The notes under the pieces: model-generated
Told to the model about the DNA's origin: nothing
The model's database searches: none
Seen by the model: only the letters and a program-made list of their open reading frames with translations
Translations under genes and position numbers: made by a program
Shown: positions 1 to 64,000 of the stretch, in pieces
How the letters are laid out: each line of letters begins with the position of its first letter
Numbering within the stretch: the stretch's first letter is position 1
From: Candidatus Saccharimonadota bacterium
GTDB lineage: Bacteria > Patescibacteriota > Saccharimonadia > Saccharimonadales > JACOTW01
Assembly: GCA_016178135.1 (NCBI GenBank)
Contig: JACOTW010000002.1
Location: 77,043-141,042, forward strand
Length of the DNA: 64,000 bases
Reading direction: 5' to 3'

Positions 1-5
1 TAGGG

Positions 6-1634
6 ATGGAGGAAGCTTTGCGTAAGTCCAATATAGAGATACCGTTTGTTAGTGAGCGCGGATGGCATTACCGTTTATTTGAGATATTACCGGGGGCTAT
101 TACGTGGTCCATACTAATTTTGCCATTTATACTAAGCATATTTAACCCTCGCTTAACGGTGTTTTTCATCATTGCCTATCTATTACTTTGGTTCGTAAAA
201 GCTGTGGGACTCAATATCAGAGCTCTACAGGGTTACCATACGCTGACAATTCACCAGAAACTGCCATGGACACAAATGCTTAATGAGCTTGAGTCTGGAC
301 AATCCAACCAGTCAGACAAACGCTTACCTAATTGGCACCATGCTAATATCCGACGCATGCAAGACAGTACTCCATTAGTTAGGGCTAGCGATGTGTTACA
401 CGCGATTTTTATTGCTACGTATAACGAAAGTCGTGAAGTTCTTGAGCCAACGATTAAATCCGTACTTGCTTCTGATTTTGATATGAAACGAGTGATATTG
501 ATTCTGGCTTACGAAGAAAGAGGCGGTGAAGCGATTGCACGACAAGCCGAAACGCTCATAAAAGACTACAAATCTCATTTTCGAGACGCGATAGCCATAG
601 GTCATCCAAAAGATCTACCAGGTGAGATAATTGGCAAGGGTGGCAATATCACTTTTGCTGGCCGATATCTGAAGACATACTTAAAACAAAAGAAAATCAG
701 ACCTGTAGATGTCGTAGTTACAACTCTAGATGCCGATAATCGCCCTCATCCCAAGTATTTAGCCGCCCTAACCTATACCTACGTTATTTGCCCAGACCCC
801 ATACATATCTCTTATCAGCCCATACCTATGTATACGAGTAATATTTGGGATGCACCTGCTCCTATGCGAGTTATTGCTACGGGTAATTCGTTCTGGAATA
901 TAGTGTTGGCTTTACGGCCCCATATTCTGCGTAACTTTTCGGCTCATGCCCAAAGTATGCAAACCATAATTGATACAGATTTTTGGAGTGTTCGAACTAT
1001 TGTTGAAGATGGGCATCAATTTTGGCGTACATATTTTCGCTATGAAGGTAATCATGAAGTTGTTCCTATCTATCTACCAATTTATCAGGATGCCGTATTG
1101 GCCAATGGTTACATCAGAACCCTCAAAGCACAATTTATACAGCTTAGACGTTGGGCGTGGGGTGCTTCAGATGTGGCATATGTTGCAGAGAAAGGATTTT
1201 TTACAAAGAATAAGGTTCCAAAAATCGATCTTATCTTTAAGTTTTTGCGTCTTTTGGAAGGACATGTAACCTGGGCAGTTGCACCCTTGATATTAGCTTT
1301 CGGCGCCTTTATTCCTGTCTGGTTTAATCCAAAAGATTATGCAGCGAACCAACTACCAATTATTGCCAGTCGTATTCAGACGGTAGCCATGATCGGCATA
1401 TTTGCTACGCTTTACATAAGCCTGAAAACCTTACCGCCTAAACCTAAAAGGTACAAGGCACATCGCAACATTCTAATGATGGCGCAGTGGGTTATGTTGC
1501 CCGTAACGACTATTCTTTATAATTCTTTTTCGGCTCTTTATTCCCAGACGCGATTGATGTTCGGTAAATATATTGGCAAATTTGATCTTACCGAGAAAGC
1601 GGTCATTACCGAAGACAAAAAAACTATTGTTTAG
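6..1634 (+). CDS. Family-2 glycosyltransferase, multi-pass membrane, processive (cellulose/chitin-synthase-like)
   Basis: 542-aa ORF with hydrophobic N- and C-terminal segments. It has a DxD-like 'TLDADNRP', 'EDGHQFWR' and the processive GT2 QxxRW motif as 'QLRRWAWG'. Confidence 0.75.
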   Translation: MEEALRKSNIEIPFVSERGWHYRLFEILPGAITWSILILPFILSIFNPRLTVFFIIAYLLLWFVKAVGLNIRALQGYHTLTIHQKLPWTQMLNELESGQSNQSDKRLPNWHHANIRRMQDSTPLVRASDVLHAIFIATYNESREVLEPTIKSVLASDFDMKRVILILAYEERGGEAIARQAETLIKDYKSHFRDAIAIGHPKDLPGEIIGKGGNITFAGRYLKTYLKQKKIRPVDVVVTTLDADNRPHPKYLAALTYTYVICPDPIHISYQPIPMYTSNIWDAPAPMRVIATGNSFWNIVLALRPHILRNFSAHAQSMQTIIDTDFWSVRTIVEDGHQFWRTYFRYEGNHEVVPIYLPIYQDAVLANGYIRTLKAQFIQLRRWAWGASDVAYVAEKGFFTKNKVPKIDLIFKFLRLLEGHVTWAVAPLILAFGAFIPVWFNPKDYAANQLPIIASRIQTVAMIGIFATLYISLKTLPPKPKRYKAHRNILMMAQWVMLPVTTILYNSFSALYSQTRLMFGKYIGKFDLTEKAVITEDKKTIV

Positions 1635-1637
1635 ATA

Positions 1638-1800
1638 TAGCCCCCGCAAAACAAATTCGGGGGTTTTGGAGCCGATGATCTTCGAGTCAAAAACTGGCTT
1701 TTCCGAGGGAAGCATATCATTAGATAAGGTGAGTGAGGAAAGACAGCTTTTGGCCGAAGAGGGCGGTTCAAAAAGCCGTGAATTTGTTTTGCGGGGGCTA
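1638..1800. mobile_element. MITE-like element, family B (alpha subtype), full copy B1
   Basis: Perfect ~21-bp terminal inverted repeats: TAGCCCCCGCAAAACAAATTC ... GAATTTGTTTTGCGGGGGCTA. TA lies on both flanks. It starts 3 nt after the GT2 stop codon. Near-identical copies sit at 24275 and 51038. Confidence 0.85.
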
Positions 1801-1860
1801 TATATACCGGACTGACGCAAAACTTCTTTATTCCCAGACGGAATAATCTCGTGTCTGTGC

Positions 1861-2324: not shown

Positions 2325-2484
2325 ACTCGACTTACGCAAAATCGTCCATTCCCAGAGTGAATTATCTTGAGCGAAAACTGTTTTGTCTGAAGGAGAGGTA
2401 GCCGTAGCTACATCGAGAGAAGAAAAACTGTTTGTAGCCGATAGAATTCGATCTGGGGATGGAGGAGTTTTGCATAAGTCGAGT
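2325..2484. mobile_element. MITE-like palindromic element, family A, full copy A1
   Basis: 160 bp with termini ACTCGACTTACGCAAAA / TTTTGCATAAGTCGAGT, flanked by AA/AA. Alignable end to end with 15984-16144. Confidence 0.85.
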
Positions 2485-7727: not shown

Positions 7728-7931
7728 ACTGGATCTGTTGCAAAACTCCTCCATCCCCAGATCGAATTCTATCGGCTACTCTTCGAGTCTGAGCCTGAGG
7801 GCTCACCTCAGAGTCGAAAACAAACAGTTTTTCTTCTTTCGATGTAGCTAAGGCTACCTCTCCTTCAGACAAAACAGTTTTCGCTCGAGATAATTCACTC
7901 TGGGAACGGACGATTTTGCGACAGGTCCAGT
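7728..7931. mobile_element. Family A element A2 carrying a nested ~42-bp palindrome
   Basis: A-type termini with AG/AG flanks. The extra segment TCTTCGAGTCTGAGCCTGAGGGCTCACCTCAGAGTCGAAAA (~7789-7830) is absent from other copies and is itself a hairpin. Confidence 0.8.
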
Positions 7932-10269: not shown

Positions 10270-11322
10270 ATGAAATATAATCTACTGGACTTACGCAAAG
10301 CTCCCTCATCCCCAGACCAACTAACCTCGGCTGCAAACAGTTTTTCCTCTCTCGATGTACCTTCAGGTACCTCTCCTTCAGATAAAACTGTTTTCGCTCG
10401 AGCTGATTTGCCCTGGGAACGAGGGATTTTGCGTAAGTCCAGTCCACTCGACTTACACAAAATCGTCCGTTCCCAGAGTGAATTGCCCGAAACACCAGTT
10501 GCGCGAAAGACTCCATCTGTTAAATACAGCTCGGAGCCCATATTATCTAATTCTGCGCATTTCTTAGTGATTGTAGGGCCAACGGCTAGCGGAAAAAGTG
10601 CGTTAGCGATGGAGCTAGCTCAAAAATTAAATGGCGAAATAATCTGCGCTGATTCACGAACTGTATACAAGTATTTAGATATTGGTACCGCTAAACCTAC
10701 CAAAAAAGACAGAAAACAAGTGCCACATCATCTTTTGGATGTAGTTAATCCCGACCAGAACTTTACGGTTGCAGATTTTAAGTTACTGGCCAATGAGGCC
10801 ATAGATAACATACAAAAACGAGGGAGATTACCTATTATGGTTGGTGGTAGCGGACTATATATTGATGCTGTACTGTTTGATTATCAATTTGCAGCTGAAG
10901 GCATGCCACGTAATCCGATCAACCCGAGACATCTTATGCAAAAAAGGTCACGCCAGTTACAGGTATTACGCTCGAACACTCTTATTATTGGTTTGGATGT
11001 ACCTCGAGACATCCTAAAACAAAGAATTACGGATCGTGTACAAGACATGGTTGCGGTTGGTTTTATCGAAGAAGTACAACATCTTATGAAAATATATCCC
11101 GAAAGCAAAGCCTTACTAGCCCCAGGCTACAAGGCTTTTAGTGAATATATTAATGGTAATCTTAGTATCGAAGATGCCGAGGCCTTATTTATTAAAAATG
11201 ACTACCAATTAGTAAGGCGCCAGATGACATGGTTTAAGCGCAATAAAAGTATTCATTGGATAAATAACCCCAGTAATTCTGTAGAAATTATCACAACGTT
11301 TTTGAGTAAAACAATAGTTTGA
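10270..11322 (+). CDS. miaA: tRNA dimethylallyltransferase whose only in-frame ATG lies upstream of a family A repeat
   Basis: MiaA core from 'LVIVGPTASGKSALAMELA' onward, with 'DSRTVYKYLDIGTAKP' and 'LPIMVGGSGLY'. The first ~95 codons are translated repeat A3 plus a partial copy. An in-frame GTG at ~10567 is an alternative start. Confidence 0.8.
   Translation: MKYNLLDLRKAPSSPDQLTSAANSFSSLDVPSGTSPSDKTVFARADLPWERGILRKSSPLDLHKIVRSQSELPETPVARKTPSVKYSSEPILSNSAHFLVIVGPTASGKSALAMELAQKLNGEIICADSRTVYKYLDIGTAKPTKKDRKQVPHHLLDVVNPDQNFTVADFKLLANEAIDNIQKRGRLPIMVGGSGLYIDAVLFDYQFAAEGMPRNPINPRHLMQKRSRQLQVLRSNTLIIGLDVPRDILKQRITDRVQDMVAVGFIEEVQHLMKIYPESKALLAPGYKAFSEYINGNLSIEDAEALFIKNDYQLVRRQMTWFKRNKSIHWINNPSNSVEIITTFLSKTIV
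10284..10443. mobile_element. Family A element A3 (full), followed by a ~45-bp partial copy at 10446-10490
   Basis: ACTGGACTTACGCAAAG ... TTTTGCGTAAGTCCAGT. It lies inside the annotated miaA ORF, in the same frame and orientation as the copies in priA and the ROK kinase. Confidence 0.85.
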
Positions 11323-12938: not shown

Positions 12939-13758
12939 ATGGCTATGACTAATATTAACAGTCGTTATGAATATTTACGGGAGGCTCAAGTACTTTACTG
13001 GCGAGCTAAAAAGAGACGCAACCGCCGGAAGCTAACAGCTATTCTGGATGACGCGGTAGAGATAACTGGATTTAACCGTAAGTATCTAATTACTAAGCTT
13101 CGCAAAAGGCTTAAGCCATACCCCACAGGGCGTACTCGATCCGACCCTCGGGGACGCAAAGACATCTACGGTTCAACAGAGTTTCATGACGCTTTGCTGA
13201 CCTGTTGGCGGGCTGCCAATGAGATTTGTGCCGAACGGTTACAGCCATATTTACCTGAGCTGGTGCCGAAACTTGCACTGTGCGGCGAGTTATAGGTTAG
13301 TGACATCACCAAGGAATTGCTGTTAGCCGCCAGCATATCCACTATTGCCAGGCGGCTGGCTCGGGTCAAACGGCGCAGTCACGTGCACCAAGCCGGGTAC
13401 ACTGCTCAAAAGCCAGATACCGGTTCGTAAAGGCCTCTGGAATGAAACCAAGCCTGGCTATCTGGAAAGTGATACGGTTGCACACTGTGGCGGAGATTTA
13501 TCCGGTAGTTTCATCCATAGCTACAACTTCGTAGATATTGCTACTAGCTGGAGCGAGCAGTCCGTGGCCATGGGCATGGGAGAGAAGGCCACTGTTGAGT
13601 GCTTCGAGAAGATCCGTGGCCGGGTACCGTTCAAGGTACTCGGCATCGATTCCGACAATGGTGGTGAGTACATTAACCACCACCTGTGGCGGTACTGTCG
13701 GAAAAACAAGCTTGAGTTTACCCGTTCCCGTCCTGGCAAGAAGAACGGATATGGATGA
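12939..13758 (+). pseudogene. Decayed DDE (rve / integrase-core) transposase in two frames, truncated
   Basis: ORF1 is an HTH-like N-terminus. ORF2 'ESDTVAHCGGDLSGSFIHSYNFVDIATSWSE...LGIDSDNGGEYIN...TRSRPGKKN' is an rve core that stops just after RPxKKN, where an 18-bp hairpin (ACGGATATG..CATATCCGT) interrupts it. The region is visibly more GC-rich than its surroundings. Confidence 0.7.
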
Positions 13759-15983: not shown

Positions 15984-16144
15984 ACTGGACTTACGCAAAA
16001 TCGTCCGTTCCCAGAGTGAATTATCTCGAGCGAAAACTGTTTTATCTGAAGGAGAGGTAGCCATAGCTACATCGAGAGAAGAAAAACCGTTTGTAGCCGA
16101 TAGAATTTGATCTGGGGATGGAGGAGTTTTGCGACAGGTCCAGT
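15984..16144. mobile_element. Family A element A4 (full)
   Basis: 161 bp, ACTGGACTTACGCAAAATCG ... TTTTGCGACAGGTCCAGT. It begins 9 nt after the M50 stop codon. Confidence 0.85.
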
Positions 16145-16431: not shown

Positions 16432-16517
16432 ACTCGACTTACGCAAAATCGCCCGTCCCCAGAGTGAATCAGCTCGAGCAGATAGTGGTTTGACTGAAGG
16501 AGAGGTAGCCTTAGCTA
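16432..16517. mobile_element. Family A half-copy (A5), ending at its central TA
   Basis: ACTCGACTTACGCAAAATCGCCCG...GAGGTAGCCTTAGCTA is followed directly by a family B terminus. Confidence 0.75.
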
Positions 16518-16653
16518 TAGTCCCCGCAAAACAAATTCGTGGGTTTTTGAAGCAATGATCTTTGAGCCAAAAACTGACTTTTCCGAGAGAGACATATCCT
16601 TAGATACGTTGAACGAGGAAAGGCGGTTTTGGGCCAAAGAGGGTGATTCGAAA
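16518..16653. mobile_element. Family B (beta subtype) element, right end missing
   Basis: TAGTCCCCGCAAAACAAATTCGTGGG...GGTGATTCGAAA. It matches 37633-37796 over its whole length. Confidence 0.8.
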
Positions 16654-16863: not shown

Positions 16864-17529
16864 ATGTGGCAAGAAAAAAACGGCGAATTATATCAAAAAT
16901 TTGAATTTAAAGATTTCCAGGATGCTTTTTTATTTATGCAAGTGGTGGCTACTGAAGCCGAAAAGCAACATCATCATCCTCGTTGGTGTAATGATTGGAA
17001 TGTAGTAGAGATATGGTTAAGTACGCATGAAGCTGGTCATGAAGTTACGGATAAGGATTGGTCGCTAGCGGAGAAAATCACCGAATTGTTCGATGGTCAG
17101 CAAATGTCTGCAGATGATTCAGTTATAAAATATGAAAAAATAAAGCTTTATGCCGATGGTGGCTCCAGGGGTAATCCTGGCCCTTCTGCTTCGGGCTATG
17201 TTTTGATGGATCTAAATGACAATGTTATATTCAGGACCGGCATTTATCTAGGTGTTACGACGAATAATCAAGCGGAATATAAGGCACTTAAATTTGGTCT
17301 AGAAAAAGCTCAAAAAATGCTAGTGCAAGAAGTAAATGTTTTCTTGGACAGTCTTTTAGTTGTGAATCAAATGAAAGGTACTTTTAAGATTAAAAATAAA
17401 GATCTTTTGCCAATTTATGATGCCATTCAAGAACTTCTAGGACATTTTCGAAAGGTTACTTTTACTCATGTCCCAAGAGCACTTAACAAGCTTGCCGACG
17501 CTGAAGTCAATAAGGTACTTGATCTATAG
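16864..17529 (+). CDS. Fusion protein: pterin-4a-carbinolamine dehydratase-like domain plus RNase H (type 1) domain
   Basis: The N-terminus 'FKDFQDAFLFMQVVATEAEKQHHHPRWCNDWNVVEIWLSTH' carries the PCD signature. The C-terminus 'LYADGGSRGNPGPSASGYVL...NNQAEYKALKFGLEKA...DSLLVVNQM...LNKLADAEVN' is an RNase H fold. Confidence 0.7.
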   Translation: MWQEKNGELYQKFEFKDFQDAFLFMQVVATEAEKQHHHPRWCNDWNVVEIWLSTHEAGHEVTDKDWSLAEKITELFDGQQMSADDSVIKYEKIKLYADGGSRGNPGPSASGYVLMDLNDNVIFRTGIYLGVTTNNQAEYKALKFGLEKAQKMLVQEVNVFLDSLLVVNQMKGTFKIKNKDLLPIYDAIQELLGHFRKVTFTHVPRALNKLADAEVNKVLDL

Positions 17530-17689
17530 CCATCCCAAAACAAAATGACCATTTTTGTCTGCGCCTGATGATCTAAAAACTACTTTTTTGTCTGTAGCAT
17601 ATCTACGGATATGCTTTAGCCAAAGAAAGCTAGTTTTTAGACTCATCATCCATCACTCAAAATTTGGTCATTTTGTTTTGGAATGGCTA
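17527..17689. mobile_element. MITE-like element, family C, copy C1
   Basis: TIRs TAGCCATCCCAAAACAAAATGACCA / TGGTCATTTTGTTTTGGAATGGCTA with TA on both flanks. Its first 3 nt (TAG) are the stop codon of the preceding gene. An inverted copy is at 22738-22900. Confidence 0.85.
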
Positions 17690-17761
17690 TACTATAGGCA
17701 TCAAACTCTGACTTGCCCCGATCCTGTACCCGTAAGCAGCACTAGTCGGCTTTTTTGCTAA

Positions 17762-17830
17762 ACTGGACCTGCTACAAAAATCCCTCGTTTCCGGGGCGAA
17801 TCAGCTCGAGCGAAAACTGTTTTTACTGGA
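17762..17830. repeat. Family A partial copy (left half)
   Basis: ACTGGACCTGCTACAAAAATCCCTCG...GAGCGAAAACTGTTTTTACTGGA. Confidence 0.6.
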
Positions 17831-19351: not shown

Positions 19352-19510
19352 CACGAGTTTCGCGCTTTTCCATCGTCCCAGATGACACCTGACAGGCTAC
19401 AGCCGCTCACTCCTCACTCAACATAGGCTATAGCCCAAGCCTCCCTCGGATTGAACAACTGTAACCAGCCAGCTACCACCTGGTATCAATGGCTAAGTGC
19501 GAAACTCGTG
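19352..19510. mobile_element. MITE-like element, family D, copy D1
   Basis: 14-bp TIRs CACGAGTTTCGC(G/A)C ... GTGCGAAACTCGTG. Alignable throughout with 56047-56205. Confidence 0.8.
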
Positions 19511-19547: not shown

Positions 19548-19585
19548 TCTGGGGATGAAGGAGTTTTGCATAACTCGAGTCCAGT
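19548..19585. repeat. Family A partial copy (right end)
   Basis: TCTGGGGATGAAGGAGTTTTGCATAACTCGAGTCCAGT abuts the rplT stop codon. Confidence 0.6.
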
Positions 19586-22439: not shown

Positions 22440-22737
22440 GTAAGGTTTTGAGATTTTTATTATGAGTTTTAAAACGTGTTGGTTTTATTGTTTTTATGGA
22501 ACAACGGCTTGCGAGAAGCCGTTGTTACAGATTCGTTTTTGTTTTGAGCACTTTTTTTATTCAAGCGCCATACTCATCTTATATATCTGATTTTGGACTG
22601 TCAATAGAACTCACGCTTATTTTTTTAGCTACCTGTGCATAACTTTATAATTTTAAGCCCTTTTTAGAAATATACACTTTATAATTTCTGCAAAAAATCT
22701 AGGATATGTGGCTATACAGGCACGAGTTTCGCACTTA

Positions 22738-22900
22738 TAGCCATTCCAAAACAAAATGACCAAATTTTGAGTGATGGATGATGAGTCTAAAAACTAGCTT
22801 TCTTTGGCTAAAGCATATCCGTAGATATGCTGCAGACAAAAAAGTAGTTTTTAGATCATCAAGCGCAGACAAAAATGGTCATTTTGTTTTGGGATGGCTA
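22738..22900. mobile_element. Family C element, copy C2 (inverted relative to C1)
   Basis: TAGCCATTCCAAAACAAAATGACCA ... TGGTCATTTTGTTTTGGGATGGCTA with TA flanks. It is preceded by a 15-bp family D terminus (22721-22735). Confidence 0.85.
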
Positions 22901-23279
22901 TAGGTCAATGCGTACTAATCGGGCTATGATATTTTATTCAAAAAATATATAAACATACAATAATTTATATCCTGAATGCTATACAAATCGTTATTTTTTA
23001 AACAACAGTAATTAATAAAAAATAAATGGTAAAATAATGTACGCAACAGTTTAACATTGTCTATATAACAACAAAAGTATTGACTAAAATAGTGTTTAGT
23101 AGTAACTTAACTAGTGTGAGTTAAAAAACAAAAAACTTACAATCTACAATAAATTTGGTTTGGCAAATTTATTGCTATCGCTCTCATTATGAGAGCGGTC
23201 AGTCAAAGCTATGGACGATAAGCGCTAATAAATTATTTTTTGTAAGAGCGGATTTATCGTCCTAGCTCTATTTAAAATA

Positions 23280-23464
23280 TTGTTCAACACGAGTTTCGCA
23301 GTTTGCCATTGATACCTTGGTTGCTCTAAGCCGAGCGAAAACAGTTTTCTCTGACACGCATTTCGCACTTAGCCGTTGATGCCAGTTTGCACCTAGCTGA
23401 GCAAAAACTGCTGAACTGATGGAGAGGTGGCTGTAGCTACATGGAGAGCAGGTCAATAGTTTGT
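23280..23464. repeat. Mosaic of degenerate family D and A fragments
   Basis: Contains CACGAGTTTCGCA, GAGCGAAAACAGTTTTCTCTGA, CATTTCGCACTTAGCCGTTGATG and GGAGAGGTGGCTGTAGCTACATGGAGAG. Confidence 0.55.
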
Positions 23465-23625
23465 ACTGGACTTGTATATTGATCCCTCATCCTCAGGCCG
23501 ACTAACCTCGGCTACAAACAGTTTTTCCTCTCTCGATGTACCTCCCAGGTACCTCTCCTTCAGACAAAACTGTTTTCGCTCGAGCTGATTCGCCCTGGGA
23601 ACGAGGGATTTTGCGTAAGTCCAGT
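23465..23625. mobile_element. Family A element A8 (full)
   Basis: 161 bp with GT/GT flanks, the same subtype as A3. Confidence 0.85.
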
Positions 23626-24200: not shown

Positions 24201-24274
24201 AAAATAATGTTTCATGGCATAGTCTTGCTTTAGCCAAAACTTATGTCTACGAAAAAGTGTGAAAGTCCTATATA

Positions 24275-24437: not shown

Positions 24438-24440
24438 TAC

Positions 24441-27933: not shown

Positions 27934-30096
<2,163 letters not shown>

Positions 30097-44599: not shown

Positions 44600-45563
44600 G
44601 ACTATCCCTTATTAATTCATAACAACCATATATTACAGCTTCTTCTGGCCGTTGTGCTTGTAGAATAGGAGGCATAGAAATTAATGGCATCTTGTATTTT
44701 TTTAGTTCGTTAACTAAAAAATCAGCAAATCTATCATAATAAGATGCCACCCCACCACCTAGAATTACTACTTCTGGCTCAAATAGTGATATGAAATTAA
44801 TAAGTCCTACGGATAAGTCTCTGGCAATAATCTGCCAAATTTTAGGATCTTCTATTTCGCTCGCTCTCTTGCCAAAACGTCTTACGATTGCTTTGCCTGA
44901 AGCAAAATTTTCCCATAACTCCATAGCTCCATCGTGCTCAACTAGCAATCCTTTGCCACCACTATCTCCTAATGATAAATCAATTACTCCACTTGTTACC
45001 AGGGCAGCCCCTATACCGGTTCCTATGGTTATGTATAGTACTTTATCGTAGTCTTGCTTAACAAGAATCGCTTCAGATAGGGCTCCTAGTTTTGCATCGT
45101 TTTCTACGGCAACAGGACACTTAACAATTTTTTCTAGATCAGATTGAATAAATTTATTTTTCCAGTTTAGATTCCCGCTACTTTTAAGTTTGCCTTGCTC
45201 TCTATCTAAGACACACGGGATACCTACACCGGCCCCCAGAAAACTATTAGTCTGTAGAACAGATATACTTGACTTACGCAAAATCGCCCGTTCCCAGGCT
45301 AAATCAGCTCGAGTTGGGAGTGGTTTGGCTGAAGGAGAGGTAGCCATAGCTACATCGAGAGAAGACAGACTGCTACCAGCCGAGATGAATTGGTCTGGGG
45401 ATGGGGGAGCTTTGCGTAAGTCCAGTATATTACTCCCCAGTTCTATTAAAAAATCATCATAGTTCTTGATCGTAGGGAATCGTAGTTTTTTTATTATATT
45501 ACCCATATCATCAAAAGAGGCAACAAGTGTTTTTGTCCCTCCAACATCTACAGCCAAATACAT
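44583..45563 (-). CDS. ROK-family sugar kinase (glucokinase-like) interrupted in frame by a family A repeat
   Basis: 'MYLAVDVGGTKT', 'GAGVGIPC', 'ENDAKLGALSE', 'ITIGTGIGAAL' and 'ILGGGV'. Residues ~46-99 ('ILDLRKAPPSPDQFISAGSSLSSLDVAMATSPSAKPLPTRADLAWERAILRKSSI') are the translated repeat A12. Confidence 0.85.
   Translation of the reverse strand: MYLAVDVGGTKTLVASFDDMGNIIKKLRFPTIKNYDDFLIELGSNILDLRKAPPSPDQFISAGSSLSSLDVAMATSPSAKPLPTRADLAWERAILRKSSISVLQTNSFLGAGVGIPCVLDREQGKLKSSGNLNWKNKFIQSDLEKIVKCPVAVENDAKLGALSEAILVKQDYDKVLYITIGTGIGAALVTSGVIDLSLGDSGGKGLLVEHDGAMELWENFASGKAIVRRFGKRASEIEDPKIWQIIARDLSVGLINFISLFEPEVVILGGGVASYYDRFADFLVNELKKYKMPLISMPPILQAQRPEEAVIYGCYELIRDSHAKST
45267..45426. mobile_element. 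Family A element A12 (full) inside the ROK kinase ORF
   Basis: 160 bp with AT/AT flanks. The internal ~125 bp differ at one position from the intergenic copy at 48627-48788, which is inverted. Confidence 0.9.
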
Positions 45564-48567: not shown

Positions 48568-48626
48568 AGGCGACGGAAAAGTGCGAAACTTGTGTCCGAG
48601 AAGGTATTTTGCGACAGGTCCAGCAT

Positions 48627-48788
48627 ACTGGACCTGTCGCAAAGCTCCCCCATCCCCAGACCAATTCATCTCGGCTGGTAGCGGTCTGTCTTCTCTCGAT
48701 GTAGCTATGGCTACCTCTCCTTCAGCCAAACCACTCCCAACTCGAGCTGATTTAGCCTGGGAACGGGCGATTTTGCGACAGGTCCAGT
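48627..48788. mobile_element. Family A element A11 (full), preceded by a 21-bp A-end fragment (48603-48623)
   Basis: 162 bp with AT/AT flanks. It is the near-identical inverted partner of A12. Confidence 0.9.
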
Positions 48789-50824: not shown

Positions 50825-50883
50825 TTAACAGAGTATATAGGACTTTTACACTTTTTTGTAGATAACAGGGTGCAACTGGCTAA

Positions 50884-50950
50884 GCGAAAACTTTCAGGCC
50901 GAAGGAGAGGTAGCCATCGCTACATCGAAAGAGGCATGGAAGTTTGTAGC
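50884..50950. repeat. Family A central fragment
   Basis: GCGAAAACTTTCAGGCCGAAGGAGAGGTAGCCATCGCTACATCGAAAGAGG. Confidence 0.55.
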
Positions 50951-51037
50951 TAGTCAGTTGTGCTCTGTTGCTATGAAAAGGTGTGAAAGTCCTGTATATA
51001 TAGGACTTTTACACTTTTTTGTAGATATAGCCCCCGC

Positions 51038-51190
51038 AAAACAAATTCACGGCTTTTTGAACCGCCCTCTCCGGCCAAAAACTGTCTTTCCTCACTCACC
51101 TTATCTAATGATATGCTTCCCTCAGAAAAGCCAGTTTTTGACTCGAAGATCATCGGCTCCAAAACCCCCGAATTTGTTTTGCGGGGGCTA
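51038..51190. mobile_element. Family B (alpha) element, full copy B3, supplying the priA stop codon
   Basis: Same TIRs as B1/B2 and TA flanks. The last 3 nt (CTA, 51188-51190) are the reverse complement of the priA TAG stop. Confidence 0.85.
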
Positions 51191-53308
51191 TAACAGGGTA
51201 GCGGGAAGACTTTTGATAATTTCAAGCAATTTCCCTCGACTTCTTGATTTCACTATCAATTGCCAATGATATTTGCCTTGTTGTTTTTCATGAAATGCCG
51301 GTGATGGTCCGATGATTGATAGAGATAATTGTTTTTGCTGGAGTTCTAATAGTAATTTTTCCGAGGCTTTTTTAGCAGATTGCTGGGTGGCACGTTTGCA
51401 AGATAGTTTGAGAAGATAACAGAAGGGAGGGAATATGAAAATTTCACGTTCATGCAACTGTTGTTTATAAAATTCTTCATAATTTTTAGTTATTGCAGCG
51501 TTAATGATCGGGCTTTCTGGATGATATGTTTGTATTATCAACATACCTTTAAGGTGTCCGCGCCCTACTCGACCACTGACTTGGCTGATCATCTGAAATG
51601 TTTTTTCTTCAGCGGTATAATCTGGAATATATAAGCCGGTATCAGCCACAACTATGCCCACTAAACTTAATCGAGTCAAATCAAGGCCTTTTGAGAGTAT
51701 TTGTGTCCCGACCAATATATCTACGGCTCCACTTTCTATAGTTTCGTAATGCATTTCTAGCCGATCGGCCTTAAGATTGTCGCCGTCAAACCTTTGCACC
51801 CTTGCCTCGGGCAGTAGTCTTTTTATTTCGGCAACAATAAGTTTTGTGCCTATGCTCTTGAAGATAACTTCAGTACCGTGACAGTTTGGGCAATTAGATG
51901 GAGTTTGTTCGCTATGACCGCACGTATGGCATAAAGCCAAATGAGTATCACCATGATAGGTAAGTGGAAGGTCGCAACGTGGACAAAGTAGCTGCCAGCC
52001 ACAACTTTGACACAATATTATTCGTGCCGTACCCCGTCTATTTAAGAAAAGCAAAGACTGTTCCTTGTTTTGTAGGCGTAAGCGCATTTCTTTTATAAGA
52101 TCATCGGATAGCCATTTTGATTGTGAAAAATGAGCCTTATCTTGTAGTGCTATTAATTTGGTGACGGAGCCTGCTTCATTAGACTTATGCAAAATTGTTT
52201 GTTCCTGGGGCGAATCAGCTCGAGCGAAAACTGTTTTGTCTGAAGTAGAGGTACCTGAAGGCACATCGAGAGAAGAAAAACTGGTTGTAGGCGAGGTTAT
52301 TCGATCTGGGGATGGGAGAGCTTTGTTTAAGTCCAGTTTAGCGGTCTCTGTGGCTGCTCTTGTCATGCGGACGATTGGCAGTCCCTTCGCCTTAAAGGTG
52401 AAGTAGTCATTGATTAGGGGGGTAGCGGAGCCAAGTACTAGTCGCGCACCTTCTAATTGGGCTAAACGTGCTGCAACTCGTGTTGTTTGATAGTTGGGGG
52501 CTTGTTCTTGCTTGTATGCTGTGTCATGAGCCTCGTCTACCACAATAAGTCCTATGTTTGACAAAGGGGTGAACAATGCCGATCGAGGTCCAACTACCAC
52601 TAGTGGCTCCTCGGCCTCCAGAATCTTTAACCAGGCATCACGCCTTTGTGCCGAGGTTAGCGCGGAATGTATACCGATAATTTGATCAGGAAATGCTACT
52701 TCCAGCATTTTTATTAGTTGAGGCGTAAGACCGATTTCGGGTGTTAATATGAGTACTGAACGACCATTTTGAATCTGTTCTTTTGCTAATTCAATATATA
52801 CCCTGGTTTTGCCTGTGCCGGTATCGCCATGCAGCAATATGGGTTCTTGTTTTTTTGATGCTTGTATTTGTTGTAGTGCAGATTGCTGATCAGGCGTAAG
52901 CGTTGGGAGCTTTTTTTCAGGGGGTGGAGGAGTTTCGGGTAAGTCGTCGAGTATAGGGATTTTGCTTGGGCCCGGTGTCGGTCTAGCTTGTTGCTGGATG
53001 CCACTCGGTAAAAATAATTGTATCAAGACCCCAGAAGGAGCTGGATAATAAGATCTAAGCCACCCAAAAAGCTTAAACACCGAAGAAGGCACAGGATTTT
53101 TACCTATTTGCTTCAATATAGATTGAGTTTTAAAAGCTGGCTTTTTAACTTGAGCATTAACGATACCAAGTACTACTTGTCGCCGTAGACCTACAGTAAC
53201 AACAGAGCCATTTTCTATCGATATGTCGCTTTCGTAAATCAGAGGCTTATCACCATGATATCTAGGGCTACTTATCCAAACTTCGTAGTACGACTTTATT
53301 GTAGGCAT
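51188..53308 (-). CDS. priA: Primosomal protein N' (replication restart helicase PriA) interrupted in frame by a family A repeat
   Basis: 'LLHGDTGTGKT', 'VVDEAHD' and a Cys-rich zinc module 'CQSCGWQLLCPRCDLPLTYH...CHTCGH...CPNCHG', then 'GTQILSKGLD' and 'QVSGRVGRG'. The segment 'LDLNKALPSPDRITSPTTSFSSLDVPSGTSTSDKTVFARADSPQEQTILHKSN' is the translated repeat A13. Confidence 0.9.
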   Translation of the reverse strand: MPTIKSYYEVWISSPRYHGDKPLIYESDISIENGSVVTVGLRRQVVLGIVNAQVKKPAFKTQSILKQIGKNPVPSSVFKLFGWLRSYYPAPSGVLIQLFLPSGIQQQARPTPGPSKIPILDDLPETPPPPEKKLPTLTPDQQSALQQIQASKKQEPILLHGDTGTGKTRVYIELAKEQIQNGRSVLILTPEIGLTPQLIKMLEVAFPDQIIGIHSALTSAQRRDAWLKILEAEEPLVVVGPRSALFTPLSNIGLIVVDEAHDTAYKQEQAPNYQTTRVAARLAQLEGARLVLGSATPLINDYFTFKAKGLPIVRMTRAATETAKLDLNKALPSPDRITSPTTSFSSLDVPSGTSTSDKTVFARADSPQEQTILHKSNEAGSVTKLIALQDKAHFSQSKWLSDDLIKEMRLRLQNKEQSLLFLNRRGTARIILCQSCGWQLLCPRCDLPLTYHGDTHLALCHTCGHSEQTPSNCPNCHGTEVIFKSIGTKLIVAEIKRLLPEARVQRFDGDNLKADRLEMHYETIESGAVDILVGTQILSKGLDLTRLSLVGIVVADTGLYIPDYTAEEKTFQMISQVSGRVGRGHLKGMLIIQTYHPESPIINAAITKNYEEFYKQQLHEREIFIFPPFCYLLKLSCKRATQQSAKKASEKLLLELQQKQLSLSIIGPSPAFHEKQQGKYHWQLIVKSRSRGKLLEIIKSLPATLL
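52178..52337. mobile_element. Family A element A13 (full, diverged) inside the priA ORF
   Basis: ATTAGACTTATGCAAAATTG...GGGATGGGAGAGCTTTGTTTAAGTCCAGT. It is colinear with A1 and A4. Confidence 0.85.
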
Positions 53309-53947: not shown

Positions 53948-53960
53948 TCCAAGAATCTAA

Positions 53961-54036
53961 ACTGGACCTATCGCAAACTCCTCCATCCCCAGATCAACTA
54001 ATCTCGGCTGGTATCAGTCGGTATTTTCTCGATGTA
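53961..54036. mobile_element. Family A half-copy (A10), ending at the central TA
   Basis: ACTGGACCTATCGCAAACTCCTCCATCCCCAGATC...TTCTCGATGTA is followed directly by a family B terminus. Confidence 0.75.
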
Positions 54037-54186
54037 TAGTCCCCGCAAAACAAATTCGTGGGTTTTTGAAGCAATGATCTTTGAGCCAAAAACTGACTTT
54101 TCCGAGAGAGACATATCCTTAGATACGTTGAACGAGGAAAGGCGGTTTTGGGCCAAAGAGGGTGATTCGAAAAGTTGCGGGGGCTA
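54037..54186. mobile_element. Family B (beta) element with a ~12-bp internal deletion near the right TIR (B7)
   Basis: TAGTCCCCGCAAAACAAATTCGTGGG...GATTCGAAAAGTTGCGGGGGCTA, followed by TA. Confidence 0.8.
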
Positions 54187-54231
54187 TAATTATAGCCAAA
54201 CTAACTGTGGTTTGATACACTTTTGTTATAA

Positions 54232-55992: not shown

Positions 55993-55998
55993 TAGTTA

Positions 55999-56044
55999 TA
56001 GCCCCCGCAAAACAAATTCGGAGGTTTTGGAGCCGATGATCTTT
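55999..56044. repeat. Family B (alpha) left-end fragment (B8)
   Basis: TAGCCCCCGCAAAACAAATTCGGAGGTTTTGGAGCCGATGATCTTT, starting 6 nt after the map stop codon. Confidence 0.7.
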
Positions 56045-56046
56045 AA

Positions 56047-56205
56047 CACGAGTTTCGGACTTTTCCATCGCCCCAGATGACACCTGACAGGCTACAGCCG
56101 CTCACTCCTCACTCAACATAGGCTATGGTCCAAGCCTCCCTCGGATTGAACAACTGTAACCAGCCAGCTACCACCTGGTATCAATGGCTAAGTGCGAAAC
56201 TCGTG
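56047..56205. mobile_element. Family D element, copy D2
   Basis: CACGAGTTTCGGAC ... GTGCGAAACTCGTG, nearly colinear with D1. It is followed by TATACT and the ftsA ATG. Confidence 0.8.
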
Positions 56206-62320: not shown

Positions 62321-62473
62321 ACACGAATTTCTAGACATTGGTAGCTCTACCTAAACTTACCCAAAAATATTCTAAAATTTTGCTTGCATACACCCAACCA
62401 TAAGCGTATAATTTACAGATAATAAACAGGTAAGGAGCTACAACTGCCTATAGGCATCAGCTACAACAGAAAT

Positions 62474-64000
62474 ATGGCAGACAAACAACCCATTACCACA
62501 ATATTTAATCAGCCGTATGATATTGAGTCTTCGGCCTCTGTTGGTAATGTTAGTGATCTTGCCAGCTCGAACATCGGACAACCAGTTAACGGCCATGCCG
62601 TACCCCTAATAAGCTATGGCTCTTTTGGCCCGATCAAACCTGACGGCAAGAACAAACGCCGATCACCATTCCCTTGGCGTCCGGTATTTACCTTCTTAGC
62701 AGTCATAGCTGCCATAGCCTTGCTAACATTTGGATATATATCACTGCGTAACAGAGACGATTCTATACTGACCGACGCTAGTAGCGATGATGCCATTATC
62801 GCCAATGGCGCTATCAATGCTACTAATCCTTCCAGACTGATCGTCGGCCGCCTAACCGCTGGCTTTAATCTATCTCTGCAGGGTGGTCTTGACAGTACTT
62901 TTAAAGTTACAGATGGTACCAACACTACCACTCTGGGTTTTACTCCTCCAATTGCTAATACTACTATAAACGTACCAGCCCTGGCAGCCGGCAATTATAC
63001 CCTCTGTACTAATGGCGGTAATTGTATTGGTGGTAATGGTAGTTCACCTAACGGTGCTGCCTATTTGACTGTAGGCAATAATGCTACTTTATCTTCCGAA
63101 AGATCTATCACGGCCGGCCTAAATCTTACTGCCGTTGATGGTGGCGCCAACTCGGCTTATACCTTATCTGTAGTAAATAATCCAACGTTTTCCGGCCTAA
63201 TAACAGCAACCTCTGGTATAGCAACCTCTGGTGCGGACTTAAGCCTAAACGTTAATTCTAATTTTGCCACCAACATCAACACAGGGTCTTCTACTGGTAC
63301 GGTATCTATTGGTAGTAGCAATGCTGGCACTATTGCTATTCAAAGCGCTTCAACTCTCAACCTAACTGGTGCCACCACTATCACCGGCCTAACTAGTGGC
63401 AACGCCCTAGTGGTTAATAATTCTACCAGTACTGGCAACATACTAGTCCTGCAAAACAACGGTATACCTACTCTAACAGTTCAAAACGACGCCAGTTTAG
63501 CCTGGGAAGGTACTACCGTAGACACTAACAAAACCGTGCTTACCGTTGTAAATCCTACAGCAAACATCACATATCGCCTAGCCGATGCCTTGCCTGGTAC
63601 CTATGACATATGTACCATGGCTGGTAATTGTGCTGGTGTTGCCGGCAATACTTTGCAGGCTGCCTACAGTGCCGATATTGATGGTGGAAATTCTATTATT
63701 GCCTTAACTACCACTGACGATTCCCTAATTGTTCGTAATCCAGCTGTTGGCGGTTCAGATTCAACTTTTGTGTTCAAAGTAGATCAGCTCAATACGGGTG
63801 CCGTTGATGGCGTAATAGTTAGTCACGCCGGCACTGGCTATGCCCTAAGAGTCAACGATGACGGCACCGATACCGACAGTACACCTTTTGTGATAGATAA
63901 CAATGGCAACGCCGGCATTGGGACGACTACCGGCATAAACTCTAAGCTAACATTCGCAGCCGATACTACCGCAGCTGGCGGCATACTCTTTGGCACAGAC
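62474..64000 (+). CDS. Large membrane-anchored, T/N/G/A-rich repetitive surface protein (partial; runs off the window)
   Basis: Manual translation from the ATG at 62474 stays open for 509 codons to the window end. An N-terminal cytoplasmic stretch precedes the TM 'VFTFLAVIAAIALLTFGYI'. Low-complexity beta-rich repeats follow, with recurring 'NYTLCTNGGNCIGG' / 'TYDICTMAGNCAGV' Cys pairs. Confidence 0.7.
   Translation, partial: MADKQPITTIFNQPYDIESSASVGNVSDLASSNIGQPVNGHAVPLISYGSFGPIKPDGKNKRRSPFPWRPVFTFLAVIAAIALLTFGYISLRNRDDSILTDASSDDAIIANGAINATNPSRLIVGRLTAGFNLSLQGGLDSTFKVTDGTNTTTLGFTPPIANTTINVPALAAGNYTLCTNGGNCIGGNGSSPNGAAYLTVGNNATLSSERSITAGLNLTAVDGGANSAYTLSVVNNPTFSGLITATSGIATSGADLSLNVNSNFATNINTGSSTGTVSIGSSNAGTIAIQSASTLNLTGATTITGLTSGNALVVNNSTSTGNILVLQNNGIPTLTVQNDASLAWEGTTVDTNKTVLTVVNPTANITYRLADALPGTYDICTMAGNCAGVAGNTLQAAYSADIDGGNSIIALTTTDDSLIVRNPAVGGSDSTFVFKVDQLNTGAVDGVIVSHAGTGYALRVNDDGTDTDSTPFVIDNNGNAGIGTTTGINSKLTFAADTTAAGGILFGTD

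What the first reader, a model, noticed from the sequence alone, without database searches (positions are those of the whole stretch)
1..64000. Unusually dense, multi-family MITE load in a reduced genome, with no cognate transposase in view
At least six structured repeat families occur. A is ~160 bp, with 8 full and at least 8 partial copies. B is ~163 bp, with alpha and beta subtypes and 9 copies. C is ~163 bp, with 2 copies plus 1 remnant. D is ~159 bp, with 3 copies plus fragments. E is GC-rich with 3 copies. G has 1 copy. Together they cover roughly 5 kb (~8%) of a window otherwise made of core genes. Elements are nested in or abut one another at 16432-16653, 23280-23700, 24275-24600, 37430-37890 and 55999-56205. 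The only transposase-like gene in the window is a decayed rve-type pseudogene whose ends do not resemble any of these TIRs. Small symbiont-type genomes are usually thought to be repeat-poor, which makes this notable.
Basis: partly seen in the sequence, partly recalled or inferred. Interest (0 to 1): 0.7.

Follow-up and report, generated by a model that had tools for sequence, protein, structure and literature searches.

The report
MITE swarm in a Saccharibacteria genome
A tiny-genome episymbiotic bacterium (Candidatus Saccharibacteria, from a groundwater MAG study) carries an unusually dense, recently active swarm of about 160-bp non-autonomous transposons; the parent transposase gene of one family was found only in other bacteria of the same radiation, and the elements sit in almost every intergenic gap, inside each other and in-frame inside two essential genes.

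Summary
Self-BLAST finds 5.2 kb (8.1%) of the window repeated, in at least six related families of 157-170 bp hairpin elements.

The MITE reading is supported and can now be made specific:
- **Target site:** families A, C and F (20 of 20 termini) and most B termini are flanked by TA.
- **Parent element:** the 23-27 bp TIR of family A matches the ends of 1.13-kb IS630-family insertion sequences found only in other Patescibacteria genomes.
- **Recent movement:** a sister strain (99.56% identical) has one empty C site and one extra A insertion, both precise and with TA duplication.
- **Spread:** the elements occur on other contigs of the genome at 5-11% of sampled DNA.
- **Transposase:** no IS630 transposase was found in the 117 kb of this genome that I could read.
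- **In-frame copies:** two B copies add about 54 residues to PriA and to a ROK kinase, as Rickettsia palindromic elements do.

One caveat matters. Five "partial" copies in the window are complete in the sister strain. They are probably local assembly collapses, so the window understates the true load.

This is a new member of a known kind. No paper on MITEs in this radiation was found. The hairpins are much more stable on one RNA strand, and I could not explain this.

The parts
1636..1804 (+). Family A1, complete (element 1638-1802) with TA on both sides. It starts 2 bp after the stop codon of ORF 6-1634.
   Evidence: fold -87.3 kcal/mol, z -11.6
2326..2483 (+). Family B, complete, between the nrdR-like gene (minus strand) and tgt (plus strand).
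7729..7930 (-). Family B, long variant carrying a 42-bp internal palindrome (7777-7822). It lies 9 bp upstream of tRNA-Val.
10285..10484 (-). Family B, complete (10285-10442), followed by a 38-nt B 5' fragment (10447-10484). It lies between thrS and miaA and is annotated as the N-terminus of the 350-aa miaA ORF.
12939..13758 (+). Decayed rve/IS481-like transposase fragments. These are context only and are not the partner of any family here.
   Evidence: Pfam rve 29 bits, below cutoff; NF033577 23 bits; no family terminus nearby
15985..16143 (+). Family B, complete, 11 bp after the stop of the M50 peptidase ORF.
16433..16653 (+). B left half (16433-16517) with A2 nested at TA (from 16518). The A2 right end, the B right half and 37 bp of unique DNA (142 bp in all) are missing here but present in both other assemblies.
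17525..17691 (+). Family C, complete (17527-17689) with TA duplication. It is absent from sister strain GCA_040960765.1, where the empty site reads CTTGATC-TA-CTATAGG. It supplies the stop codon of ORF 16864-17529.
17763..17823 (+). B 5' fragment immediately upstream of RNase P RNA (17894-18262).
19352..19510 (+). Family D, complete. Its ends are CACGAGTTTCGC.../...GCGAAACTCGTG and its flanks are CTTGG and CCTGG.
19548..19580 (+). B 3' fragment.
22721..22902 (-). D left end (22721-22735) interrupted at TA by a complete C element (22738-22900). The remaining 156 bp of D are missing in the window but present in both other assemblies.
23288..23680 (.). A D-end fragment (23288-23353), then a D-ended element with a B-like core (23354-23680) that carries a nested complete B (about 23466-23624).
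24246..24600 (.). F terminal fragment (24246-24270), complete A1 (24275-24437, opposite orientation) and complete D (24442-24600), abutting one another. D is flanked by TATAC on both sides.
27934..28072 (+). A2 between the HerA-like gene and gyrB. The right 146 bp (A2 right TIR plus a C-like remnant) are missing here. They are present in both other assemblies and in Logan contig L025.
32726..32927 (-). B half (32726-32801) with A2 nested at GATG-TA, truncated in the window. GCA_016196105.1 holds the missing A2 end and B half.
37493..37880 (.). A D-ended element with a B-like core (37493-37815) carrying a nested complete A2 (37634-37796), then a B 3' fragment (37844-37880). It lies between tRNA-Ala (minus strand) and 23S rRNA.
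   Evidence: identical in GCA_016196105.1
43988..44160 (+). Family G: B-type termini around an unrelated palindromic core, downstream of 5S rRNA.
45268..45425 (+). Family B, complete, TA on both sides, translated in-frame inside the ROK kinase ORF 44583-45563 (minus strand), residues about 44-101.
48603..48787 (-). B TIR fragment (48603-48623) plus a complete B (48628-48787). In sister strain GCA_040960765.1 an A2 element (163 bp, plus the duplicated TA) sits in its central loop at 48702 (GATG-TA|A2|TA-GCTA).
50838..51199 (.). Family F, complete (50838-50994), then a second F (from 51001) interrupted at TA by a complete A1 (51028-51190). 87 bp of the second F are missing in the window but present in both other assemblies.
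52176..52337 (+). Family B, older copy (about 80% identity to the reference, decayed TIRs), translated in-frame as a 54-residue insert in PriA (ORF 51188-53308, minus strand).
53960..54190 (.). B half (53960-54036) with A2 nested at GATG-TA (from 54037). The window has a 13-bp gap in the A2 right TIR. GCA_016196105.1 lacks 53936-54064.
55997..56205 (+). A1 5' fragment (55999-56043) abutting a complete D (56047-56205). The annotated ftsA ORF (56125-57450) starts inside D.

Best explanation
These are non-autonomous DNA transposons (MITEs) that have expanded in the roughly 0.9-Mb genome of a Candidatus Saccharibacteria bacterium.

**Shown.** Families A, C, F and B/G insert at TA and duplicate it, which is the hallmark of IS630/Tc1-mariner cut-and-paste transposition. 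Family A carries the same 23-27 bp terminal inverted repeat as 1.13-kb IS630-family insertion sequences in other Patescibacteria.

**Inferred.** Family A is mobilised in trans by such a transposase, which binds the TIRs through its N-terminal helix-turn-helix domains. That is the mechanism demonstrated for ISY100. B, C and F are presumed to use related IS630-type enzymes. Their termini share the inner CAAAA motif and the TA target, but no partner was found.

D has different ends and apparently 5-bp duplications, so it probably uses another transposase family.

**Consequences seen in the sequence.**
- The families share a homologous hairpin core and nest into one another. The TA-containing central loop of B is a repeated target for A2.
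- They fill most intergenic gaps.
- Where a copy landed in the orientation and frame that has no stop codon, it persists as a roughly 54-residue insert in PriA and in a ROK kinase.
- The near-identity of A2 copies and two strain-specific insertions indicate transposition at about the time the strains diverged (0.44% divergence).

The source of the transposase in this lineage is unknown.
For: **Repeats and folds**
- 8.1% of the window is repeated.
- The elements fold as long hairpins with z -6.3 to -13.4.

**Target site**
- TA flanks 13/13 A termini, 4/4 C, 3/3 F and 11/20 B, against a 7.7% background for the TA dinucleotide.

**Cognate insertion sequence for family A**
- An exact scan for the A TIR across one genome per species of GTDB hit only 9 loci, all in Patescibacteria MAGs.
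- At four of them two TIRs lie 1.10-1.14 kb apart. Three enclose an intact single 345-348 aa ORF; the fourth (L008) is split into 82-aa and 236-aa ORFs.
- The two intact ORFs scanned score 185 and 202 bits on NCBIfam NF033545, IS630 family transposase (cutoff 100), and match Pfam DDE_3 plus HTH domains.
- A1 termini are 97% identical to the IS ends over 32-34 nt.
- The TIR encodes the transposase C-terminus ...PEFVLR. About 80 of 120 homologues at 49-100% identity end the same way.
- Contig ends L001 and L007 show the right end of full-length IS copies at two sites in another Saccharibacteria MAG.

**Strain polymorphism (sister strain, 99.56% identity)**
- C at 17525-17689 is present here and the site is empty there.
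- A2 at 48702 is present there and the site is empty here.
- Both are precise and have TA duplication.
- A2 copies are 99.3-100% identical to each other, A1 98.2-98.8% and C 98.8%.

**Genome-wide spread**
- 35 B-derived short ORFs were found. Most carry HY003 locus tags (HY003_00600 to HY003_04340) and lie on at least 10 contigs; about ten come from other public assemblies.
- Other contigs of the genome hold 5.0-11.1% MITE sequence.

**In-frame inserts**
- PriA is 706-715 aa here, against about 640-650 aa in nearly all of the listed homologues.
- Its 54-aa gap in the alignment is colinear with the B element.
- The ROK kinase carries about 53 extra residues between the ATP motif and the core.
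- Both inserts use the same stop-free frame.

**Mechanism reference**
- ISY100 transposase binds its TIRs through two HTH motifs and is the only protein required (abstract of PMC2170065, seen).
- RUP is proposed to be mobilised by IS630-Spn1, on TIR similarity and TA targets (PMC2229807).
Against: - No IS630 transposase, intact or decayed, was found in the window or in 117 kb (about 13%) of the genome. Mobilisation in this lineage is therefore inferred, not shown.
- Only the termini (36 nt or less) of A match the IS. The MITE interior is unrelated, so A is not a simple deletion derivative.
- No autonomous partner was found for B, C, D or F:
  - the exact B TIR scan of JGI metagenomes gave only chance 17-18 nt matches;
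  - viral scans for A, B, C and D gave nothing real;
  - no IS630 homologue ends with the peptide a B or C TIR would encode.
- 9 of 20 B termini lack a clean TA.
- D does not show a TA duplication.
Confidence: 0.88

Rival explanations
1. The repeat load is an assembly artefact (collapsed or chimeric contigs), not a property of the organism.
For: The window and GCA_016196105.1 have 0 mismatches across all but one of the aligned unique blocks (2 in the 10.8-kb block 35968-46768). Yet they differ by 8 indels (9 counting a 13-bp gap in an A2 TIR), and all but one lie at MITE loci. Each assembly lacks the piece on the opposite side of an identical repeat core.

The sister strain carries both sides at the loci it covers. 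Logan contig L025, assembled from raw reads of SRR12113416, carries the 146 bp missing at window 28073. Short-read Logan contigs of this organism break at the elements.
Against: The elements themselves are present, with the same flanks, in three NCBI assemblies from at least two projects and in Logan assemblies of several runs. They also occur in other Saccharibacteria genomes (L004, L048).

Filled and empty sites have exact TA duplications. The artefacts remove MITE sequence, so the window understates the load. The same regions hold 8.8-11.5% in the sister strain.
Confidence: 0.03
2. The elements are fossils. They moved in the past, but this lineage has lost the transposase and they are now immobile. 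The strain differences reflect old insertions or later deletions.
For: No IS630 transposase was found in 117 kb of the genome, and the only transposase-like genes seen are decayed rve fragments. B and D copies are old, at 70-97% identity. The PriA insert is shared by both strains.
Against: A2 copies are 99.3-100% identical. Two insertions differ between genomes that are 99.56% identical, and the empty sites are intact single TA dinucleotides. Only about 13% of the genome was searched.
Confidence: 0.25
3. The elements are kept, at least partly, because their transcripts act as structured RNAs, for example terminators, RNase III sites, mRNA stabilisers or antisense RNAs. On this reading they are more than selfish DNA. 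This does not exclude mobility.
For: - The RNA of one strand is more stable than its complement in 18 of 18 B copies, by 20 kcal/mol on average.
- G.U pairs are one-sided: 13 vs 1 in D, 11 vs 0 in F and 8 vs 1 in B2.
- The favoured strand is the same homologous strand in A, B, D and F.
- B shows 9 pairs with compensatory double changes and 96.4% of cells paired, reached in 1 of 500 and 0 of 500 shuffles respectively.
- The A terminus contains CCCCCG-N11-CGGGGG-TTTT.
Against: - Copies descend from a few master sequences, so the 18 copies are not independent, and the shuffle control does not remove relatedness (tool note).
- Orientation relative to neighbouring genes shows no clear bias in my reading: 4 sense and 6 antisense for B, 6 and 2 for A.
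- There is no Rfam match.
- The terminator scan shows no enrichment.
- C and G are symmetric.
Confidence: 0.2
4. The elements belong to another class of small repeats, such as REP/BIME with a RAYT, IS200/IS605-derived palindromic elements, or intron or retron fragments.
For: They form long hairpins and lie in intergenic DNA. The window holds group I and group II-like intron sequences in its rRNA genes.
Against: - They have 14-27 bp terminal inverted repeats, a TA duplication, and termini identical to a DDE_3/IS630 element.
- No Rfam family matches them.
- No similarity to the rRNA introns appears in self-BLAST.
Confidence: 0.02

Closest known systems
RUP (repeat unit of pneumococcus) and IS630-Spn1, Streptococcus pneumoniae
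   Same: A small hairpin MITE whose TIRs match an IS630-family element, with insertion at TA. It is therefore proposed to be mobilised in trans, and it inserts preferentially into other mobile elements (PMC2229807).
   Different: RUP is 107 bp, a single family, intergenic only, and its IS partner is in the same genome. Here there are at least six related families of 157-170 bp, no partner was seen in the genome, some copies are in-frame in genes, and the load is far higher per Mb.
Rickettsia palindromic elements (RPE)
   Same: Palindromic elements of about 105-146 bp in a reduced genome, found both in intergenic DNA and fused in-frame into conserved protein genes (PMC2229807). Here PriA and a ROK kinase carry about 54-residue inserts.
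   Different: No transposase partner or consistent TSD has been defined for RPE. Here the TA duplication and an IS630 partner for one family are clear. Only 2 in-frame cases were seen, and the B-peptide search returned only short ORFs.
Correia/NEMIS elements of Neisseria
   Same: TA duplication, TIRs of about 24-26 bp, 107-155 bp hairpins, many intergenic copies, and known RNA-level effects (PMC2229807). From memory, the Correia TIR also begins TATAGC and contains AACAAAAA.
   Different: The TIR sequences were not compared with tools. No autonomous partner is established for Correia. Here there are multiple families with a shared core, and the host phylum is different.
ISY100 (Synechocystis), the biochemically characterised IS630/Tc1-mariner member
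   Same: It serves as the model for the mechanism. [quoted passage not shown] Its family inserts at TA. The CPR partner transposases have the same HTH plus DDE_3 architecture.
   Different: ISY100 is autonomous. No biochemical work exists for the CPR elements.
QMITE1/QMITE2 of Coxiella burnetii
   Same: MITE families in a reduced, host-associated genome, with proposed effects on proteins and small RNAs (PMC5896051, title and abstract).
   Different: A different host and different sequences. I did not read or compare densities or termini.

Membership tests
Bacterial MITE (generic) | Small (under about 300 bp), many copies, no transposase gene | tested here: met
   Elements are 157-170 bp. About 40 copies or fragments lie in 64 kb. 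C and D have stops in all six frames, and A and B have only about 55-codon open frames.
Bacterial MITE (generic) | Terminal inverted repeats and a hairpin fold | tested here: met
   TIRs are 14-27 bp. MFE is -56 to -87 kcal/mol, with z -6.3 to -13.4.
Bacterial MITE (generic) | Target-site duplication, and filled versus empty sites | tested here: met
   TA flanks 20 of 20 A, C and F termini. Two precise filled/empty pairs separate the strains.
IS630/Tc1-mariner-derived MITE | TIRs match those of an IS630-family insertion sequence | tested here: met
   Met for family A only, at 96-97% over 32-34 nt to the ends of L002, L003 and L005, and 94% over 32 nt to L008. The two partner ORFs scanned (L003, L002) score 202 and 185 bits on NF033545.
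IS630/Tc1-mariner-derived MITE | Autonomous partner identified for families B, C, D and F | tested here: not met
   Scans of metagenome and viral contigs gave only chance hits. The C-terminus test on 270 IS630 homologues was negative.
IS630/Tc1-mariner-derived MITE | TA target duplication | tested here: met
   A 13/13, C 4/4, F 3/3 and B 11/20, with 8 further B termini flanked by NA. D does not fit: its flanks suggest 5-bp duplications (TATAC/TATAC, ATAAT/ATAAT) in my reading.
IS630/Tc1-mariner-derived MITE | Cognate transposase available in the same cell | tested here: inconclusive
   tblastn found nothing in 117 kb of the source genome, best E 0.26. About 87% of the genome could not be read.
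IS630/Tc1-mariner-derived MITE | Transposase binds and moves the element | not testable with these tools
   Needs in vitro or in vivo transposition assays.
RPE-like protein-coding palindromic elements | In-frame insertion in conserved protein genes with the ORF preserved | tested here: met
   PriA carries a 54-aa insert absent from 9 aligned homologues. The ROK kinase has about 53 extra residues relative to PDB homologues.
RPE-like protein-coding palindromic elements | Sequence homology to Rickettsia RPE families | not tested
Homology is not expected, given the IS630-type termini.
RPE-like protein-coding palindromic elements | The insert is translated and tolerated in the folded protein | not testable with these tools
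   Only ORF integrity in two strains is shown (PriA is 715 aa in both).

The most novel reading that the evidence does not exclude
The MITE superfamily may be more than genomic parasites. All families with the shared core keep a hairpin that is 16-37 kcal/mol more stable on one homologous strand, through one-sided G.U pairs, and B keeps it through compensatory changes.

This could mean that the transcripts are used as a dispersed RNA-level regulatory or processing signal, in a bacterium that has very few conventional regulators. The elements would then be spread by an IS630 transposase that the genome does not carry and that arrives transiently. One route is uptake of foreign DNA, since Saccharibacteria are naturally competent (abstract of PMC10187176).
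Probability: 0.12. Interest if true: 0.75.

Novelty: new member of a known kind. Interest (0 to 1): 0.48.

Why it matters
- **Unexpected load.** Patescibacteria/CPR genomes are usually described as small, streamlined and poor in mobile DNA (my background knowledge). This one has 8-11% of the sampled sequence made of recently active MITEs. From memory, that is higher than the classic reduced-genome example (RPE, about 3% of Rickettsia conorii).
- **Shared mobile-element pool.** The cognate IS630 element occurs in several CPR lineages: MAGs labelled Saccharibacteria, Kuenenbacteria and Minisyncoccia. That points to a mobile-element pool shared across the radiation.
- **Assembly quality.** The elements break short-read assemblies. 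They also appear to have caused silent local deletions, including gene ends, in deposited MAGs. This bears on how far CPR MAG gene content and intergenic regions can be trusted.
- **Protein tolerance.** The in-frame inserts in PriA and a sugar kinase are natural tests of how well proteins tolerate insertions in a minimal genome.

Tried and rejected
- **Organism guesses.** Coxiella or a cyanobacterium, guessed from GC content and the odd rRNA operon, were dropped once the TIR scan and the PriA match pointed to Saccharibacteria.
- **16S search.** A 16S search against plasmids was uninformative.
- **B partner, DNA scans.** The exact TIR scan of JGI metagenomes returned 3 chance matches in GC-rich DNA. 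The viral scan returned 10 chance matches.
- **D, A and C termini.** Viral contigs gave chance hits or none.
- **B and C partners, protein tails.** I looked for IS630 homologues whose C-terminus would be encoded by a B or C TIR (..ILRQVQ..FVLGWL). There were none among 120 close and 150 distant representatives.
- **Rfam.** No family matched the elements. A 31-bit hit to a plant microRNA precursor, against a gathering score of 140, is a generic hairpin match.
- **Promoter and terminator scan.** No enrichment over shuffles, and the A-terminus hairpin was not flagged.
- **In-frame inserts elsewhere.** The B-peptide profile search was meant to find more of them. It returned only short ORFs and did not even return PriA or ROK, so it says little about how common in-frame copies are.
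- **rve fragment.** The rve pseudogene as partner of D was rejected, because no D-like ends lie near it.

Full report
**1. What is in the window**

The window is 42% GC and holds core genes. These include thrS, miaA, gyrB/gyrA, infB, def/fmt, priA, ftsA/ftsZ, nrdR and a class II ribonucleotide reductase. It also holds an rRNA set whose 16S and 23S genes carry LAGLIDADG-encoding insertions.

Self-BLASTN marks 5,184 bp (8.1%) as repeated. Reading those blocks shows 157-170 bp elements with terminal inverted repeats.

| Family | Terminus | Note |
|---|---|---|
| A | TAG(C/T)CCCCGCAAAACAAATTC | Subfamilies A1 and A2, 83% alike |
| C | TAGCCAT(C/T)CCAAAACAAAATG | |
| F | TAGGACTTTTACAC | |
| B | CTGGAC(TTA/CTGT)CGCAAAA | |
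| G | as B | Different core |
| D | CACGAGTTTCGC...GCGAAACTCGTG | |

Each family folds as one long imperfect hairpin, with z-scores of -6.3 to -13.4 against shuffles. The copy counts need the corrections given in the observation check.

**2. Whose genome it is**

PriA of the window is 100% identical to a protein annotated as from Candidatus Saccharibacteria bacterium. It lies on JACPYE010000003.1 of GCA_016196105.1.

A sister strain exists, GCA_040960765.1 (contig JBFOMR010000010.1, 654 kb). It is 99.56% identical over 36 kb. Locus tags on B-derived ORFs run to HY003_04340. If tags step by 5, that is roughly 870 genes. "Reduced genome" is right.

**3. Why these are IS630-type MITEs**

- **TA duplication.** The dinucleotide outside the terminus is TA at 13/13 A, 4/4 C, 3/3 F and 11/20 B termini. 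The background frequency of TA is 7.7%.
- **Matching insertion sequence.**
  - An exact scan for the A terminus over one genome per GTDB species found 9 loci, all in Patescibacteria MAGs. They were labelled Saccharibacteria, Kuenenbacteria, Minisyncoccia or "Patescibacteria group".
  - At four of these loci two inverted copies of the terminus lie 1.10-1.14 kb apart.
  - Three of them (L002, L003, L005) enclose a single intact 345-348 aa ORF. In L008 the ORF is split into 82-aa and 236-aa pieces.
  - The L003 and L002 ORFs were scanned. They match NCBIfam "IS630 family transposase" at 202 and 185 bits (cutoff 100), and Pfam DDE_3 plus HTH domains.
  - The MITE and the IS share only the terminal 32-36 nt.
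- **Why the terminus is so conserved.** It encodes the transposase C-terminus ...PEFVLR. About 80 of 120 homologues, down to 49% identity, end the same way.
- **Full-length copies in Saccharibacteria.** Two contig ends of another Saccharibacteria MAG stop inside the same IS, with ...RFDYKIL* followed by the TIR (L001 and L007).

For the mechanism I rely on ISY100. Its transposase binds the TIRs through two HTH motifs and is the only protein needed (abstract of PMC2170065). I also rely on the RUP/IS630-Spn1 precedent (PMC2229807).

**4. Recent activity**

Against the sister strain, the C element at 17525-17689 is present here. Its site is empty there and reads CTTGATC-TA-CTATAGG.

Conversely, an A2 element of 163 bp (165 bp with the duplicated TA) sits in the central loop of the B copy at 48702 in the sister strain only. 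The junction reads GATG-TA|A2|TA-GCTA.

A2 copies are 99.3-100% identical to each other.

A2 has entered the TA-containing loop of B at four loci: 16518, 32802, 54037 and sister-strain 48702. At least the last is an independent event, so the B loop is a preferred target.

**5. Not confined to the window**

A profile of the B-encoded peptide found 35 short ORFs. About two dozen carry HY003 or HYS01 locus tags and lie on at least 10 contigs of these assemblies. The rest come from other public assemblies.

| Region sampled | MITE content |
|---|---|
| L046, another contig of the genome | 5.0% |
| L047, another contig of the genome | 6.2% |
| 7.7 kb upstream of the window | 11.1% |
| 4.8 kb downstream, inside a giant gene | 0% |

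Each of the first three samples was reached through a B element, so the figures are biased upwards.

Other genomes hold few copies. L004 has one A2 copy (96-98% identical to A2 copies of the window and the sister strain) and one B copy. L048 has one B copy in 17 kb. The expansion therefore looks lineage-specific.

**6. The transposase question**

tblastn with three partner transposases finds nothing in the window or in 117 kb of the genome, with a best E-value of 0.26. The rve fragments (window 12939-13758, and another in L046) are decayed and unrelated.

Partners for B, C, D and F were not found. D has different ends and apparently 5-bp duplications (my reading), so it is probably driven by another family.

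**7. Effects on genes**

- **PriA.** It is 706-715 aa here, against about 640-650 aa in nearly all of the listed homologues. The alignment shows a 54-residue insert between the DEAD lobe and the Cys-rich region, colinear with B at 52176-52337.
- **ROK kinase.** It has about 53 extra residues between the DxGGT motif and the core, colinear with B at 45268-45425.
- **Reading frame.** Both inserts use the same stop-free frame of B (LDLRKAPPSPDQ...ILRKSS). The PriA insert is shared by both strains.
- **Other effects.** C supplies the stop codon of ORF 16864-17529. Annotated starts of miaA, ftsA and several "hypothetical proteins" lie inside elements.

**8. Assembly caveat**

The window and GCA_016196105.1 show 0 mismatches across all but one of the aligned unique blocks (2 in the 10.8-kb block 35968-46768). 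Yet they differ by 8 indels (9 counting a 13-bp gap in an A2 TIR), and all but one lie at MITE loci.

- The window lacks pieces to the right of an identical repeat core, at 16652, 22903, 28073, 32928, 51199 and 54175.
- The other assembly lacks pieces to the left.
- The sister strain has both sides at the loci it covers, giving complete nested elements.
- A Logan contig built from raw reads carries the 146 bp missing at 28073.

I infer local misassembly in both MAGs, and that the window comes from a second MAG of the same study (locus tag HYS01). This is not proven without reads.

The consequence is that several "partial copies" are really complete, and the true load is higher. The same regions hold 8.8-11.5% in the sister strain.

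**9. Relatedness of the families, and an unexplained asymmetry**

Global alignment scores against shuffles link the families: A-C (z 9.9), A-B (6.3), B-F (10.0) and B-D reverse complement (5.1). D-ended elements with B-like cores also exist (23354-23680 and 37493-37815). The families therefore form one superfamily with diversified ends.

Across 17 B copies, 96.4% of cells pair and 9 pairs show compensatory double changes. That count was reached in 1 of 500 shuffles.

The RNA of one strand is more stable than its complement in 18 of 18 B copies, by 20 kcal/mol on average, and also in A, D and F. The cause is one-sided G.U pairs: 13 vs 1 in D, 11 vs 0 in F and 8 vs 1 in B2. The favoured strand is the homologous one across families.

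Copies are not independent, and orientation relative to genes shows no clear bias. I record this as a hint of RNA-level constraint, not a finding.

**10. Comparison and verdict**

The system works like RUP/IS630-Spn1 and resembles Correia elements (TA target, long TIRs) and RPE (in-frame inserts in a reduced genome) (PMC2229807).

It is a new member of a known kind. Full-text searches found no paper on MITEs in Patescibacteria, CPR or Saccharibacteria.

Interest is moderate. The density and recent activity in an ultra-small genome, the CPR-wide partner IS, and the effect on MAG assembly quality are worth reporting. The mechanism itself is conventional.

Noticed in passing
window 34725-35661: The 16S rRNA gene is interrupted after ...GGGTCTTGTACA (about 34725) by an insertion of roughly 0.85 kb. 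The insertion holds a LAGLIDADG ORF (34929-35546) and an Rfam group-II-D1D4-1 hit (34967-35049). The real 3' end, GGATTACCTCCTTTCT, is at 35646-35661, not at 34774 as the Rfam match suggests.
   Followed up: partly
window 40539-41242 and 41990-42757: Two group-I-intron-like insertions, each with a LAGLIDADG ORF (40707-41210 and 42082-42645), lie in or at the end of 23S rRNA. The Rfam RF00028 hits are below the gathering score. The second runs past the reported 23S end at 42101.
   Followed up: no
window 36382-37371: Between 16S and 23S, tRNA-Ile and tRNA-Ala lie on the opposite strand, together with a dCTP-deaminase-like gene (36382-36768). The rRNA genes are therefore not a simple operon.
   Followed up: no
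window 35881-35967: An 87-bp segment is present in the window but absent from GCA_016196105.1 and from two Logan contigs. It carries TTGACA-17 nt-TAATAT, an AAGGA motif and the ATG of ORF 35963-36304, so the ORF gains a promoter-like leader and 25 codons. It is not MITE-related.
   Followed up: partly
GCA_016196105.1 versus the window: window 1558-1638, 53936-54064 and others: The deposited MAG lacks short segments next to MITEs, including the 3' ends of genes (ORF 6-1634 and ribosomal protein S21). The window has complementary losses. Public CPR MAGs may carry silent repeat-associated deletions.
   Followed up: partly
window 16864-17529: An ORF fuses a pterin-4a-carbinolamine dehydratase domain to an RNase H domain. 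Its stop codon comes from the polymorphic C element, giving 221 aa here against 222 aa in the sister strain.
   Followed up: partly
window 7777-7822; sister strain at window position 16093: A 42-bp GC-rich palindrome (CGAGTCTGAGCC..GGCTCA..CTCAGAGTCG) sits inside some B copies. It is polymorphic between strains in the B copy at 15985-16143. It has no TA flanks and its origin is unclear.
   Followed up: partly
L045 17398-19581 (about 5-7 kb upstream of the window start): A 727-aa tyrosine recombinase (Phage_integrase) is interrupted by an intein with a LAGLIDADG_3 domain.
   Followed up: no
from about 62,470 to beyond the window end (L020 14947-, L021 14941-): A giant ORF with only a faint nSTAND3 hit differs in annotated length between strains, 2502 aa against 3224 aa.
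   Followed up: no
window 1861-2268 and 58984-59466: A second, shorter ORF with only the NrdR zinc-ribbon domain (135 aa) lies between two MITEs. The complete nrdR lies upstream of the ribonucleotide reductase gene.
   Followed up: no
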